A stretch of DNA of 54,948 nt, the filler included, from Squatina squatina (lineage: Eukaryota), in NCBI GenBank assembly GCA_031763465.1. It is 3 parts of 3 records of this genome, joined end to end, with 100 filler letters (N's around TTAATTAATTAA, not from the genome) between each part and the next. Parts side by side here need not be neighbours in the genome. Positions count along the whole stretch, not along the records: positions 26,238 to 41,514 come from JARFOE010566806.1; 2 more parts are not named here. One strand, 5' to 3'. Shown here piece by piece: positions 30,241 to 35,320 of the stretch. A program made the position numbers and the translations under genes. Positions within the stretch are counted from its first letter, which is position 1. Every line of letters starts with the position of its first letter. The notes below the pieces were generated by a model that saw only the letters and a program-made list of their open reading frames with translations, was not told where the DNA came from and did no database searches.

Positions 30241-30776
30241 TGTCAGGGACAAGAGATAATAATCCGTGGTGAAACACTCAAAGACAGAAAAGTACTGTGT
30301 GTCCCCTTTGGCTCCTCCCCAGTGAGTCCAACTTTGGTTCCTTCCCAGAAAGTTCCGATTTATAACTCCCCAGAAAAGCCTTGACCCTTGGAGATCCTTC
30401 CAGATATGGCTAGCCACTTCTTCCGACGTAGGCTGATCCCTGCGTTGGAATGAGTGTGCTTTTTTGTCAGTATAAAAGTCCAAGCCGCATGTGATGCGGG
30501 GGAGGCAGAACCTCATACCACCCAGGCCAACGCTGCCTCCTTGCGGGTGCCCGCTAAGCTTGAGCCTGCCTCCTTGCACTGTCTCCCGGAGCTGGTTTCC
30601 TGATCGTCTTCACAGGGTCCTTGGGGGTGGTGAGATTCTCTCAAGCTCTTCCTCTTCAGAAATATCCTTTACTGAATCTGTTAGATTCTCTATATTTTCC
30701 TATATTAATAAGCTGGTTGAGAGTTCTCTAGTTGTCTCTCGTTTTCTCTCACCTGGAATCCTTGAACTCTAGAACA
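30241..30776 (+). repeat. 5' LTR
   Basis: TGTCAG... to ...CTAGAACA with TATAAAAG at 30471. Aligns by eye with 34702-35320 and is followed after 4 nt by the PBS. Confidence 0.85.
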
Positions 30777-30780
30777 TAAA

Positions 30781-30798
30781 TGGTGACAAGGATGGGAT
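30781..30798 (+). promoter_or_regulatory. Primer-binding site complementary to tRNA-Ser(GCU) 3' end
   Basis: TGGTGACAAGGATGGGAT versus expected TGGCGACGAGGATGGGAT: 16/18 match, both differences being CpG-type transitions. The match continues with TC. Confidence 0.85.
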
Positions 30799-30879
30799 TC
30801 TGCGTCTGCGAGAGAGAAATAGTTGTGTATAACAAGAATTAGTGCGGCCGGGTAGCGGAGTGCACCGCTGCCAGGTTAT

Positions 30880-32420
30880 GCCACATATTGCTACGAAGTG
30901 GGGATGCACTGCAATCAGACTGCGCTGCTTTCTGTACGTGGGGTTGTGTAGTGAGGGTGCACATGTATAGGATTGCACCACGTTCTGTACATGGGGCTGT
31001 GTAGCGGGGGTGCACAGTTATGGACTGCATTGTGTTCCGTACATGGGGCTGTGTAGTGGGGGTGCACAGCTACCGGATTGCGCCATGTTCTGTACATGAG
31101 GCCGTGTAGGGGGATGCACAACTACCGGCTTGCGCTATGTGTTACGTTAAAAACGGGGGGAAGATAAACCCCTTACTTTATAAAAGGGAGCCAGGAACAG
31201 CCCCAGTGCACAGCTGTCAGTCCGAGTGTATCAAGTATCGGATTTACTGACAATAACTGTCAGACCGAGCACGTTCAGTAAGAGAATTATGATCGGATAC
31301 CGAAACAGTGCAGTTTATTTTGATTGGCTACCAAAACAGAGCAGTCTATTGATGCCACAGGTACAGGTTCTTGTGGATTGCCGCTGATAAATACTGTCTG
31401 CAAAAGCACGTGCAAATAATAGTTACACGGATACAAGCACTCGATAAAGTTGGCACAGCCTGGCTTTGAAGTATAAAGGTAAGAGTAAAGGTAACTCTAT
31501 AGAGATTCTAAGTTTTCCTAGGAAAGCACAGGATGCAGTGCAAGTCTTACCCACAGGCGTCCCTATTTGGGGGGGAAGAGAGGTCCAGCCTGTTGACCGG
31601 TCCCAGGAGTCGGTTGATGTTATCTCCCTTGACTCATCCACGATGGTATCTTCCCCAATATTCCCCTTTCTCTTGGGTCATTTTATATTATTTTTACCTT
31701 CAAGGTGGAGCTTGAGTGACTCTAGTCATACATACCTTTATTACCATTGGTGCAAATTTCTCTCACCTCGATTTAAATGTATATGAGACCAAAAATCCAG
31801 AGCGCATGCTCAGAGAGGGGTGGTCTTATTTCGGGGGGGGGGTCGCATTGGAGATGGGTGTGTACTTTAGCATGAAAATGCATTATAATGACATTATATT
31901 GAAGCAAAGTTCACACTGAGGACAGTATTTTGTCAAAAAATGACAGGCCGCTGGCTCAGGGTAGCAAGTATGCAGCTTATCAGTTTGTTGCCCCAGCTAG
32001 TCCCCGTCTTTTTGCTCAAGTTAGGACAAAGCGAAACCGTGAGATCTCCACCTCACTCCACCCTCCGTCTGTTATGGGAATCACTGTGAAGCGCACGTTC
32101 CTGACATACCAGGTATGGCTGCATCTCGCCCCGAGAGGCCCTGAAAGTCCGTTTCTCTCTTATGTGTGGACAATGCTGCATTTTGAATATAGATTTAATC
32201 CCCAATTATCCCACATTTCCTAATTATTCCACACTACGTTCTGTACATGGGGCAGTTTAGTGAGGGTGCACAGCTACTGGACTGCACTGTGTTCTGTACG
32301 TGGGACCTCGTATTGGGGGTGCACAGGGATTGGATTGCACCATGTTCTGTACATGTGGCCGGAGGCACCGCTACCAGATTGCACCACATTCTGTAGGTGG
32401 GGCTGTGTAGCGGGTAACGA
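30880..32420 (+). repeat. Approx 53-bp tandem array in the proviral leader, split by a nested LTR
   Basis: Unit TCTGTACATGGGGCTGTGTAGYGGGGGTGCACAGCTACCGGATTGCRCCAYGT starts at 30931, 30984, 31036, 31089 and then approx 32240, 32293, 32346, 32390. Confidence 0.9.
31140..32233 (-). mobile_element. Nested solo LTR (1094 bp), antisense, 5-bp TSD
   Basis: TG...CA termini with flanks CTATG (31135-31139) and CTACG (32234-32238). Minus-strand TATAAAA at 31681-31687 and AATAAA at 31314-31319. The host repeat unit resumes exactly after it. Confidence 0.85.
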
Positions 32421-32748
32421 TTGTCTGTTTGGATTTTGTGTTTCAAGTATTGTAGTTGTGTGGAGTGTGCTTGTGGGATCCCTTGTGTGTGTGCGTGTTG
32501 AGGGAAGGGTTTGGTCAGTGAAGTGTGTAGCTGCTGTTCTGTGTATTAGCAGATTAACATTCCGGCAAGAAAGGGTTAAAGCAGAAGTGCGGTTGCCGGC
32601 AGGTATTTATGGCTGCTGCTGAGCAGGCAGGCATTTATAGCTGCTGCCGAGCAGGCCGGCGTTTATAGCCGCACAGAGCAGGGTATTGGGACAGTTTCTA
32701 GAGACACCACAGACAAAGCCTAAAGAGCATCCGCAACAGGATGGGCAC

Positions 32749-33350
32749 ATGGGAGGAGCCCTGCTCAGTGTGTTTCAAGTAACCTGGAGGGGAATCCAAG
32801 ACTTGGAGGAACAGAGCAGTTGAAACAAGAGCTGCTAACTGAAGAAGCGAGAGGGGTAGTGCAACCACAAGCTTTATCAGCCGCCACCCAAGCAGCATCA
32901 AGGTGGCAGAGAAAAAAACGACCAAGCGAGAAAAACCCAAACAAAAAACCCTAGAGAAATTAGCAACATCATACGCCGTGCGGGCTGCTCCTTGGAGGAC
33001 GCCCAAAGCCCAGTGCGGATACGGGACCATGGGAACAGGCAGCAGGAACGCAACCAGATTGTGAGCCAGAGACACGGAATGGAGATATTTGGGAGACCAG
33101 TGAGTCAGAATCAAATACCAGAGATGGGGCAGAAGTGAAAAAGGAAGGAGCCAGAGCAGCTCCTATGTTTAAATGGAAGATGATTACCACGGCAAACAAG
33201 AACAGAAGAATTGACAGACTGTAGTCCCGAGGAGATCAGTAACTTCTTGGATAAATACAAGCAAAGGCCATGGGAGCAACGGCAGAACTGGCCAGTTTGC
33301 CTCCTAGATGAAGGAGCAGATACTGTATTGCTGGACAGCGTGGATGGGAA
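32749..33350 (+). pseudogene. gag: gag remnant, ERV-L/ERV-S (Fv1-related) type
   Basis: DCSPEEISNFLDKYKQRPWEQRQNWPVCLLDEGADTVLLD (33214 onward) fits the class III gag pattern 'T..EL..F...YRQ.PGE....W..R.WD.GA..I.L'. Multiple stops and frameshifts upstream. Confidence 0.7.
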
Positions 33351-34320
33351 GAAAACGAAAAAACCAACCAACCAACCAAGCACACAAACAAACAAAACTC
33401 AAACAAACAAACAAAAAACCAGCCCCGTACTAGTATTAGAACAAGGAAACCACATTGAATAAGGCATTGGAAAGCTAAGCTAGTTAAGGGATTTCCCAGG
33501 ACTGGGCTTGGACAAAGCAGCTCAGGACCAGGGGAGAGTAGGAAAGGGGGAGATGTCTGAACTGCAAGCCATCCTGTTCCCACTATGCAGATAATCAAAA
33601 ATAGAAGAAGAAGAAGAAGAATTGCTGATAGTGCACCTGGGTCTGGAGCAGGCCAGGGAGTGTTTGTGTGCAGGGGTACAAGGTCGCTCTGGGAAACAGC
33701 CTGGGAAGTGATTGTTTATTCAGCTCCTCTTACAGTCTAATGACATGCTTATTCGAGATCTGCTGCCTACCCCTATTGGAATGAATATCTGAAATGACTA
33801 CTGAAGCAAGCTCAAGAAAATGGATGAAAAGACTGATTACTGCCCATCATGATGCGGAAAAGACACCAAATTCTGGAAAGAGTAAAGAAAGAGAGAACAT
33901 CAGTGGTAGGACACTCTCTTCAAATGATGACGTGCAGCTCCAGGAATTCTGAAGAGAGTGTTCCATCCTGCTGTTGTTTTATTGATATTAGCCCTTTCAC
34001 TTTTTGTGTATTGCTTCAAGCTTGTTTTGCAGCCAGTGTGTGCTATCAACAGCACATAAGGGATTTGATTCAGTGATACTGTCAGCGTGGGTCCCTGAAT
34101 AGGTTCATCGAATCACCCTCTGATACAGTGGGCTGTCCAGTAGGGTTCCCACAATGGGACACAGACAGGCTGGTCAGACAAAAGGGTCTCGTGCTTCTTG
34201 GGACACTGACAGGCTGATCAGATAGAAAGGGTTCAAGGAAACCGCCCTTATGATGTGACACCATGGTGTGAGCCTTAGGGGTTAGTAAGTATTGCTTTTG
34301 CTTCTGCATGTACAGCAGTG

Positions 34321-34690
34321 AACATGAAGTGCCGGACAGAGATGGATTTTTTGCTTTTAGTACATAAGCGTGGGTGTGAAGACTTTGTCAGGTTATGGTG
34401 CCTGAATTTAAGTGACCACTCCAGTTGAGTACATGCATCAATAGAAAAGCTGAAGACCCTCACTAGACAGCTAGCAGCAAACAACAGGTGGAACCCCTTT
34501 CAAGGATGGATGTGGGGAGTGAGACTAGCTGCAAAAAGCTGTTGTATTAGTGGTAATAGGTATTGGGGTTGTATGTATTTTATGTGGTGTTCCTTGTCTT
34601 TTAGCACTAATCAGTTCCCTTATAGACAGTACACTATATAAAACTGTAGTACAGACGGTAAAAGATTCGTGTGTTTCGACCACGGAACAC
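34321..34690 (+). pseudogene. env: env TM remnant of ASLV-like sequence type
   Basis: Frame from 34321 reads CRTEMDFLLLVHKRGCEDFVRLWCLNLSDHSS*VHASIEKLKTLTRQL...WNPFQGWMWG. After a frameshift it reads LQKAVVLVVIGIGVVCILCGVPCLLALISSLID (membrane anchor plus PCL). Parallels ASLV TM 'NRAAIDFLLLAHGHGCED..GMCCFNLSDHS'. Confidence 0.85.
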
Positions 34691-34701
34691 AGGGTGGCAT
34701 G

Positions 34702-35320
34702 TGTCAGTGACACAAGATAATGGCCTGTGGTGAAACACACAAAGATAGAAAAGTACAGTTTTTTTGTGGTGGCCCCTCCTGGGAAAGTCCTGCTATAGCT
34801 CCTGCCGGGAAAGTCCTGCTTTAGCTCCTACCTGGAAGGTCCTGCTTTAGCTCCTCCCTGGAAAGTCCTGCTTTAGCTCCTACCTGGAAGGTCCCGCTTT
34901 GACTGATCCCCTGAAAAGTCCCAACCCTCCAAGACCTTTCTACATATTGCTGGCCACTTCTTCCGATGTACGCTGGCCCCCTACATCAGAGTGAGTGTGC
35001 GTTGTTTGCTACTATAAAAGCCCAAGCCTCATGCGATGTAGGGAGGCAGAACCTCATACCACCTGGGTAGGTCAACGTCACCTATGTGGGGACGCCTGCT
35101 AGGGGTTGAGACCACCACCTCACATTGTGATGATGTCCCTCGGAGCTGGTTTCCTGATTGTCATCACATGATCTTTGTGGATGGTAAAATAACCAAACAT
35201 CACAAATATCCTTTCCTGCATCTACTGTTATCTCTATATTTTCCCTGCATTACTGAATTAGTTGTGATTTCACTATTCTGCTTCATTTCTCTCAACCCAG
35301 AATCCTTCTACTCTGGAAAA
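34702..35320 (+). repeat. 3' LTR with 26-bp tandem array in U3
   Basis: Preceded by purine-rich CAGGGTGG. Starts TGTCAGTGACACAAGATAAT..GTGGTGAAACAC, TATAAAAG near 35013, ends ...ACTCTGGAAAA. Array spans 34775-34922. Confidence 0.8.

What the first reader, a model, noticed from the sequence alone, without database searches (positions are those of the whole stretch)
30241..35320. Chimeric avian provirus: class III (ERV-S-like) backbone carrying an alpharetrovirus-type envelope
Seen: PBS for tRNA-Ser, gag motif KYKQRPWEQ..NW...LLDEGAD and env TM motif MDFLLLVHKRGCEDFVRLWCLNLSDHS between related LTRs, with no pol motifs (no LPQG/YxDD). Established: Ser-primed ERVs with ERV-L-like gag are class III (HERV-S group), ERV-L generally lack env, and the DFLLLxHxxGCED...CC.NLSDH TM is characteristic of ASLV and related class II avian ERVs. 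Inference: this records an env exchange between class III and the ASLV-env lineage, here as a deleted, possibly non-autonomous derivative. It is the best candidate for an undescribed element in this window.
Basis: partly seen in the sequence, partly recalled or inferred. Interest (0 to 1): 0.7.

Follow-up and report, generated by a model that had tools for sequence, protein, structure and literature searches.

The report
Dead bird provirus with two envelopes
This is a broken, likely very old retrovirus fossil in a bird genome that pairs an ERV-L/HERV-S-type core with an avian-leukosis-type envelope, a pairing already reported in rhinoceros and bats, and it also carries the tail of a second, unrelated envelope gene.

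Summary
Two related LTRs (75% identical) enclose a tRNA-Ser(GCT) primer site, gag remnants whose MHR scores best against HERV-S, HERV-L and MuERV-L, and an avian gamma-type (ALV-like) TM; no pol was found. Contigs from independent runs bridge the junctions, so it is not a misassembly. Two other proteins of the ALV-like subgroup end in the same PPT/LTR read-through motif, and two gag relatives share the same capsid deletion, so this is likely one copy of a deleted, non-autonomous family. The TM is ALV-type, but the best tree does not place it beside ALV. The class III core plus alpha-like envelope pairing is already in print (rhinoceros ERV-S.1-Dbi, bat CHIRalphaEnv1), and avian class III elements with class II or Ovex1 envelopes were listed in 2012. 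Two envelope types in tandem inside one LTR pair was not found in my searches, but fusion of two neighbouring proviruses is not excluded. Modest interest.

The parts
30239..30778 (+). 5' LTR (starts TGT; TATA-like box; degenerate copies of a 26-bp unit)
   Evidence: two bases separate its end from the PBS, as two bases separate the PPT from the 3' LTR
30781..30798 (+). primer binding site, tRNA-Ser(GCT), 16 of 18 matches
   Evidence: primer in PMC9072684
30897..31139 (+). leader, 53-bp tandem array, left part
31140..32233 (-). nested solo LTR (1094 bp, TG...CA, 5-bp target duplication CTATG/CTACG), likely antisense; higher contig depth suggests a higher-copy family
   Evidence: AATAAA only on the minus strand; depth
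32234..32414 (+). leader, 53-bp tandem array, right part (continues the array split by the nested LTR)
32686..33197 (+). gag remnant, N-terminal part, in two frames, broken
   Evidence: tblastn with P0012 and P0020; profile 13 and 23 bits
33193..33354 (+). gag remnant with class III-type MHR (33256-33315)
   Evidence: (79 bits)
33355..33420 (+). A-rich microsatellite at the point where about 100 capsid residues are missing; the same deletion point is seen in P0001 and P0018
33421..33693 (+). gag C-terminal remnant and an unassigned stretch shared with P0001 (Amazona aestiva KQK77648.1)
   Evidence: score 133; 0 of 60 shuffles reach it
33724..34030 (+). envelope A: C-terminal tail and membrane anchor of an Ovex1-ORF3/GGLTR11/TERV-type envelope, with stops and small deletions
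   Evidence: hhalign 99.3%, E 7e-21; motifs read against Fig. S6 of PMC2717909
34031..34320 (.). unassigned spacer
   Evidence: no better than shuffles against 5 TM N-termini and 3 envelope A tails
34321..34717 (+). envelope B: avian gamma-type TM from the ISD to the cytoplasmic tail, one stop and one frameshift, reading through the PPT into the LTR; SU and fusion peptide absent
34683..34697 (+). weak polypurine-tract-like stretch
   Evidence: position; same read-through peptide motif in P0002 and P0004
34700..35321 (+). 3' LTR with 4.6 copies of the 26-bp unit; 3' end decayed into an A run

Best explanation
It is a dead, pol-less endogenous retrovirus with a class III (ERV-L/HERV-S-type) gag and an avian gamma-type envelope remnant, likely one copy of a deleted family that was copied by helper viruses, and it likely already carried the tail of a second, Ovex1-type envelope when it inserted. 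Shown: two related LTRs, Ser(GCT) PBS, class III MHR, both envelope remnants in one orientation and in the order gag, envelope A tail, spacer, envelope B TM, PPT, LTR; no pol; all frames broken; a later solo LTR inside the leader. Inferred: a class III lineage took up an avian gamma-type env by recombination and used it with this LTR; a derivative lost part of capsid, all of pol and most env but kept LTRs, PBS and PPT, so a helper could package and reverse-transcribe it; template switching between co-packaged RNAs left the envelope A tail upstream of envelope B (either the lineage's older envelope or a picked-up piece). It makes no working protein today; any present effect would be through its LTRs (untested).
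For: Single contigs cross the gag/envelope A/envelope B/3' LTR junctions with 1-4 differences in three runs (X4 33427-34837, X2 33730-34837, X15 33427-34165 and 34191-34837), so the order is real. MHR places gag with class III; LTRs start TGT as class III LTRs do (PMC8278194). P0001 and P0018 join the same two gag segments as the window, whereas P0009 and P0012 have the segment in between, so the deletion predates this copy. The PPT/LTR read-through motif [DE]HxV[AV]C occurs in 2 of 69 TM-bearing proteins, P0002 (Pseudopipra) and P0004, both in the subgroup nearest the window's TM. Closest relatives are about equally distant for gag (58-63%) and envelope B (61%), fitting LTRs that differ by 25%. 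Both pairings have precedent: class III with alpha-like env and class III ENS-3 with Ovex1 env.
Against: No target-site duplication could be found and the LTRs are only 75% identical with different numbers of the 26-bp unit, as a post-insertion fusion would also give. No second copy was seen that holds both envelopes: protein hits come without genomic context, and contig depth is flat over envelope B, so no paralogue above 80% identity was laid there. The class III call rests on a 20-residue motif and LTR ends; Pfam found nothing and the search with P0012 returned only itself. The read-through motif is six residues, and many of the 69 proteins stop before the tail. The TM trees have 67-75 columns and no starred branch holds the window's row.
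Confidence: 0.55

Rival explanations
1. Two separate proviruses of one LTR family, one ending in an Ovex1-type env and one in an avian gamma-type env, lay near each other and were fused after insertion by a deletion or ectopic recombination in the 290-bp spacer. The two envelopes were never in one viral RNA. The class III LTR family would still be linked to an alpha-like env.
For: No target-site duplication, 25% LTR difference; spacer unassigned; envelope A stops about where its gene would end; 998 recombinant ERVs with discordant LTRs are reported in birds (PMC12287698); contig depth is raised over gag and slightly over envelope A but not over envelope B.
Against: The 3' LTR end is decayed, so the duplication cannot be tested; no third LTR copy lies in the 15.3-kb record (a 595-base gap remains); identity is even along the LTR alignment, 0.66-0.86 per block; the junction shows no LTR or other homology.
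Confidence: 0.3
2. The full-length virus itself carried two complete envelope genes in tandem, an older Ovex1-type one and a newly added avian gamma-type one behind it, and this locus is its deleted relic.
For: Order and orientation fit a gene added between the old env and the PPT; both remnants keep their membrane anchors; class III ENS-3 elements are listed with Ovex1 envelopes.
Against: Only 100 codons of envelope A and about 130 of envelope B remain; no SU of either; no full-length copy seen; no such genome turned up in the paper search for two envelope genes (5 listings, none on this).
Confidence: 0.1
3. The ALV-like TM comes from an unrelated class II provirus nested inside a class III element.
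For: Most avian gamma-type envelopes are known from class II elements (PMC3758190); P0049 joins such an env to a class II gag; a nested insertion did occur elsewhere in this element.
Against: The TM frame runs directly through the PPT into an LTR of the same family as the 5' LTR; no class II LTR or 6-bp duplication flanks it; two relatives share the same PPT/LTR read-through.
Confidence: 0.05

Closest known systems
ERV-S.1-Dbi, black rhinoceros (bioRxiv 10.1101/2024.03.17.585361; passages read)
   Same: [quoted passage not shown]
   Different: Mammalian, recent and intact with pol; Ser(CGA) primer; SIRP-like receptor-binding domain; one env. The window's element is avian, old, pol-less, Ser(GCT), with a second env tail.
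CHIRalphaEnv1, Rhinolophus bats (PMC13568524; passages read)
   Same: Alpharetrovirus-like env beside pol fragments that cluster with ERV-L/clade III.
   Different: Env intact and conserved; belongs to a bat/reptile sister clade of avian alpha envelopes; no second env reported in the passages read.
aviervIII and ENS-3, avian class III clades (PMC3482500; passages and Tables S1, S2 read)
   Same: Avian class III proviruses listed with envelopes 'AviervIII, Avibeta1c' and 'ENS-3, Ovex1', so both a class II-derived and an Ovex1-type env on class III cores in birds.
   Different: PBS listed as Pro, not Ser; the type of the Avibeta1c envelope is not stated in what I read; no element with two envelopes listed.
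TERV, GGLTR11 and Ovex1 ORF3 (PMC2717909; passages and supplementary files 4, 5 read)
   Same: Envelope A matches their C-terminal region; TERV is likewise a pol-less avian ERV that keeps only a truncated TM of this type.
   Different: TERV has alpharetroviral LTR/gag (the reverse mix); GGLTR11 is called class I; Ovex1 is a co-opted intact gene without PBS or LTRs.
XtERV-S, Xenopus (PMC8278194; passages and supplementary file 6 read)
   Same: Class III gag, Ser PBS, LTRs starting TGT, envelope taken from another class.
   Different: Intact; class I gamma-type TM; Ser(AGA/TGA) primer.
ALV/RSV envelope (PDB 5h9c, 4jpr; UniRef Q5IX99)
   Same: ISD-DFLLL-H-GCED-C-NLSD region, E 1.7e-5; 37-49% identity by alignment length.
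   Different: Closer relatives are endogenous avian envelopes at 53-61% with a shared W-N-P-F-x-G-W-x-W-G stretch that ALV lacks.

Membership tests
Class III ERV (ERV-L/ERV-S lineage) | RT groups with ERV-L/ERV-S/spumaviruses | not testable with these tools
   No pol in the element; no relative with genomic context was retrieved.
Class III ERV (ERV-L/ERV-S lineage) | ERV-L-type gag MHR | tested here: met
   BLOSUM62 scores 43, 40, 37, 20, 19 against five class III motifs, at most 4 against six class I/II motifs; 4 of 4 gag relatives also score best on a class III motif, two of them narrowly over MLV-type motifs.
Class III ERV (ERV-L/ERV-S lineage) | LTR ends 5'-TGT...ACA-3' | tested here: inconclusive
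   Both LTRs start TGT; the 5' LTR ends near ACA, the 3' end is decayed.
Class III ERV (ERV-L/ERV-S lineage) | 5-bp target-site duplication | tested here: inconclusive
   Only chance-level candidates in a scan of 90 end pairs.
Class III ERV (ERV-L/ERV-S lineage) | No Cys-His zinc knuckle in gag | tested here: inconclusive
   None in the window or by Pfam in P0012, but the window's gag is truncated.
ERV-S (HERV-S group) | Serine tRNA primer | tested here: met
   Ser(GCT), 16 of 18; a different isoacceptor from XtERV-S and ERV-S.1-Dbi.
ERV-S (HERV-S group) | Gag/RT closer to HERV-S than to ERV-L | tested here: inconclusive
   MHR scores 43 against 40; relatives split between the two.
Avian gamma-type envelope | ISD followed by CX6CC | tested here: inconclusive
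   Region is homologous but only two of the three cysteines remain; close relatives P0002 and P0003 have all three.
Avian gamma-type envelope | Internal fusion peptide flanked by cysteines; no CXXC in SU | not testable with these tools
   That part is absent from the window; P0002 has the flanking cysteines and an Avian_gp85 match.
Avian gamma-type envelope | TM more like ASLV than like gammaretroviral TM | tested here: met
   The only significant PDB hits (2 of 5 listed at E<=10) are ASLV TM; no gammaretroviral TM listed; the 62 TM hits show the avian-type DFLLL-H-GC pattern on reading.
Alpharetrovirus genus (ASLV) | Class II gag/pol, Trp primer | tested here: not met
   Class III MHR (ALV motif scores 1) and Ser primer.
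Alpharetrovirus genus (ASLV) | TM within the ALV clade | tested here: inconclusive
   Best trees place it elsewhere (SH-aLRT 94 on the separating branch), but the constrained tree is not rejected, p-AU 0.11.
Ovex1-ORF3/GGLTR11/TERV envelope type | C-terminal L-x-S-N...P-x-P-I-G-M-N...W-W...G-W-S-P-T-A-x-G...H-P anchor, no ISD or CX6CC | tested here: met
   hhalign 99.3% to alignment A1; A1 proteins match the printed GGLTR11/TERV/Ovex1 alignment by reading; nearest Atlas cluster is an 874-aa chordate protein, score 0.86, a lead only.

The most novel reading that the evidence does not exclude
A bird class III retrovirus lineage replaced its envelope by adding a new env behind the old one, so that for a time it replicated with two unrelated envelope genes (Ovex1-type and ALV-type) in tandem; this locus and its deleted family are the fossil of that intermediate step of env swapping.
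Probability: 0.15. Interest if true: 0.6.

Novelty: new variant of a known kind. Interest (0 to 1): 0.33.

Why it matters
It extends the class III core plus alpha-like envelope pairing, so far described in rhinoceros and bats, to birds, the hosts of the alpharetroviruses, and at an old date, which bears on where that pairing arose. If the two-envelope order recurs at other loci, it would show a route of env exchange (add behind, then lose the old gene) that is usually hidden because only the end product survives. If it is a single fused locus, it is an ordinary degraded mosaic of the kind bird genomes hold in numbers.

Tried and rejected
Pfam on nine frames: nothing real. Word-indexed homologue searches with the TM and gag pieces: no hits; with P0012: only itself. 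ESM Atlas on the gag piece: nothing. PDB sequence search with P0068 and P0012: no hits at E<=10. AlphaFold2 of the envelope A family: pLDDT 30, unusable, so no fold search. Viral contigs with P0012 and with a 20-base LTR motif: nothing; metagenome contigs: one match, unrelated chance hit L001. No whole genome is held. No RNA holder listed. No tRNA or Rfam match. Idea that the spacer is the decayed fusion-peptide region of envelope B or the tail of envelope A: not above shuffles. Idea that envelope A extends upstream to about 33660: weak, best case 2 of 60 shuffles as high, the other three relatives 6-11 of 60. Misassembly rejected by bridging contigs. Earlier findings of this scan: none returned. 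The TERV paper is not held. Dfam and Repbase could not be consulted, so an existing entry for this family is not excluded. What follows envelope A in paralogous copies remains open.
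Full report
Setting. The window is a string of short records joined by N runs; the element lies in one 15.3-kb record, 26238-41514, with a gap at 36355-36949. No whole genome is held. CR1-like pieces flank it at 29428-29595 and 35489-35658; they look like parrot CR1 to me, which is recall and untested. All named protein relatives are from birds.

The locus is real. 19 of 24 listed runs hold 81-87% of its sampled words, in 16 studies and under 18 coded organism labels plus one gut metagenome. 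In the four runs laid, single contigs cross the left flank/5' LTR/PBS/leader (X2 30091-31194, 4 differences), gag/envelope A/envelope B/3' LTR (X4 33427-34837, 2 differences; X2 33730-34837, 4) and 3' LTR/right flank (X4 34972-35534). One of these runs may be the window's own source; the others are separate studies.

LTRs and priming signals. The LTRs are 30239-30778 and 34700-~35321; both start TGTGTCAG, two bases after the PPT-like stretch and, for the 5' LTR end, two bases before the PBS. They agree at 395 of 524 aligned columns, K2P 0.31, evenly along their length; no credible target duplication was found among 90 end pairs, and the 3' end has decayed into an A run. At a recalled avian neutral rate of about 2e-9 per site and year this would mean tens of millions of years, if both LTRs come from one insertion. 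The PBS matches the tRNA-Ser(GCT) primer printed in PMC9072684 at 16 of 18 positions (one passage read). The leader is a 53-bp tandem array split by a 1094-bp solo LTR with a 5-bp duplication; 5-bp duplications mark ERV3/ERVL in bird annotation (PMC6523648, passages). One X2 contig joins the two halves of the leader without the insert (side of 37 letters only).

Gag. The phmmer scan returned 75 proteins at E<=0.001; 8 match gag. P0012 (Willisornis vidua, 540 aa) covers the window's pieces at 32692-32817, 33018-33206 and 33193-33447. Scored against the eleven MHR 20-mers that I took from the 22 rows of Fig. S6 of PMC8278194, the window's MHR gives HERV-S 43, HERV-L 40, MuERV-L 37, ruff ERV 20, XtERV-S 19, and 4 or less for JSRV, GALV, ALV, MMTV, AKV and HIV-1. 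About 100 capsid residues are missing after the MHR; P0001 (Amazona aestiva) and P0018 join the same two segments, P0009 and P0012 do not, and P0001 follows the window on to 33693. So the deletion is older than this copy. No pol was found.

5 of the 75 hits match 33724-34030. They include full-length envelopes from Calidris and Balearica with a long TM lacking ISD and CX6CC. The window piece matches their alignment at 99.3% probability, E 7e-21, and 36 bits against no control hit above 3 bits. Read against Fig. S6 of PMC2717909, these proteins are the Ovex1-ORF3/GGLTR11/TERV envelope type. Only the last 100 codons with the membrane anchor remain.

Envelope B. 62 of the 75 hits match 34321-34560. 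The only significant PDB hits are ASLV TM structures 5h9c and 4jpr (E 1.7e-5). The longer relatives carry Avian_gp85 and TLV_coat matches. A tree of 63 rows (window, 60 of the 62 hits, two named cluster members; P0046 and P0063 left out as too short) and one of 28 rows put the window's TM with P0002, P0003, P0004, P0006 and P0008, away from ALV (P0073/P0096), but on 67-75 columns no starred branch holds it and a window-plus-ALV clade is not rejected, p-AU 0.11. The frame runs through the PPT into the 3' LTR; the read-through motif [DE]HxV[AV]C recurs in 2 of 69 TM-bearing proteins held, P0002 (Pseudopipra pipra) and P0004, both in that subgroup; many of the 69 end before the tail. A purine-rich read-through of the K/R-G-G-D/I-V kind, which I recall as typical of class II elements, was found in 7 of 70 other rows and, by reading, not in P0002, P0003, P0004 or P0006. 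I infer that this envelope subgroup goes with this LTR/PPT type at other loci. The 290 bp between the two envelopes match nothing above shuffles.

How it likely worked. A class III virus took up an avian gamma-type env; a deleted derivative kept the cis signals and was copied in trans; the envelope A tail is either the lineage's earlier envelope or a piece picked up by template switching. After insertion a solo LTR landed in the leader and the frames decayed. I give 0.55 to both envelope pieces being in the inserted RNA as remnants, 0.3 to fusion of two neighbouring proviruses after insertion, 0.1 to a virus with two whole envelopes and 0.05 to a nested class II env. The missing target duplication and flat contig depth over envelope B count against my reading; such recombinants are common in birds (998 cases, PMC12287698, passages).

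What is known. Since then: ERV-S.1-Dbi of the black rhinoceros is an intact Ser-primed provirus with ERV-L/HERV-S-related gag and pol and an alpha-like env (bioRxiv 10.1101/2024.03.17.585361, passages; its supplements could not be seen and may list avian relatives); bat CHIRalphaEnv1 has ERV-L-like pol (PMC13568524, passages); amphibian gamma and beta cores carry alpha-like env (PMC12690878, passages). In birds, Tables S1 and S2 of PMC3482500 list class III aviervIII with an Avibeta1c envelope and ENS-3 with Ovex1 envelopes. The review PMC10536682 (passages) and PMC5006616 (passages) added nothing on this element. Ten paper-search calls were answered (13, 20, 43, 52, 53, 65, 71, 77, 81, 89); none listed a bird class III element with two envelope types, being the direct one. 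The library lacks most subscription papers, and Dfam/Repbase were not available.

Verdict. Observation confirmed and extended; interpretation partly right; the headline pairing is known, the avian instance and the tandem second envelope are the increments. New variant of a known kind, interest 0.33.

Noticed in passing
window 40441-40617, minus strand: A second, weaker remnant like the membrane anchor and tail of an avian gamma-type env (tblastn E 2e-5 to 3e-4), about 1 kb upstream of an LTR-like stretch near 38960-39410 that follows a purine run; probably another degraded ERV 3' end.
   Followed up: partly
window 31140-32233: Nested solo LTR of another family with a 5-bp duplication; contig depth about two to three times that of the host element in X2; not named.
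   Followed up: partly
window 26238-27070: Not covered by any of the four runs laid, and contigs from X2 and X4 continue into other sequence at 27071: an insertion, paralogue or assembly join at the record's left end.
   Followed up: no
whole window: The window joins many short records by 100-N runs, with N44-TTAATTAATTAA-N44 spacers at 26138-26237 and 41515-41614; the records outside 26238-41514 have lower GC and different repeats (they look like shark repeats to me, recalled) and are likely another organism.
   Followed up: no
P0053, P0068 and cluster members (Calidris, Balearica): Long open Ovex1-type envelope proteins occur in several copies in the crowned crane record (6 named members); the family's nearest named Atlas clusters are paramyxovirus F and baculovirus F/gypsy env at scores 0.76-0.78, leads only.
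   Followed up: partly
P0037: A predicted protein that joins LDL-receptor and EGF domains to an avian gamma-type env fragment; may be a gene-prediction fusion or a retrocopy inside an ERV.
   Followed up: no
window 52737-52853, minus strand: P0082 (47 aa) matches here at 49% identity, E 2e-10; probably a LINE endonuclease piece in another record.
   Followed up: no
runs X4, X5, X6, X9: Runs with only 3-6 million letters of contigs still hold 84-85% of the element's words, which may mean the region is multicopy or enriched in those libraries.
   Followed up: no
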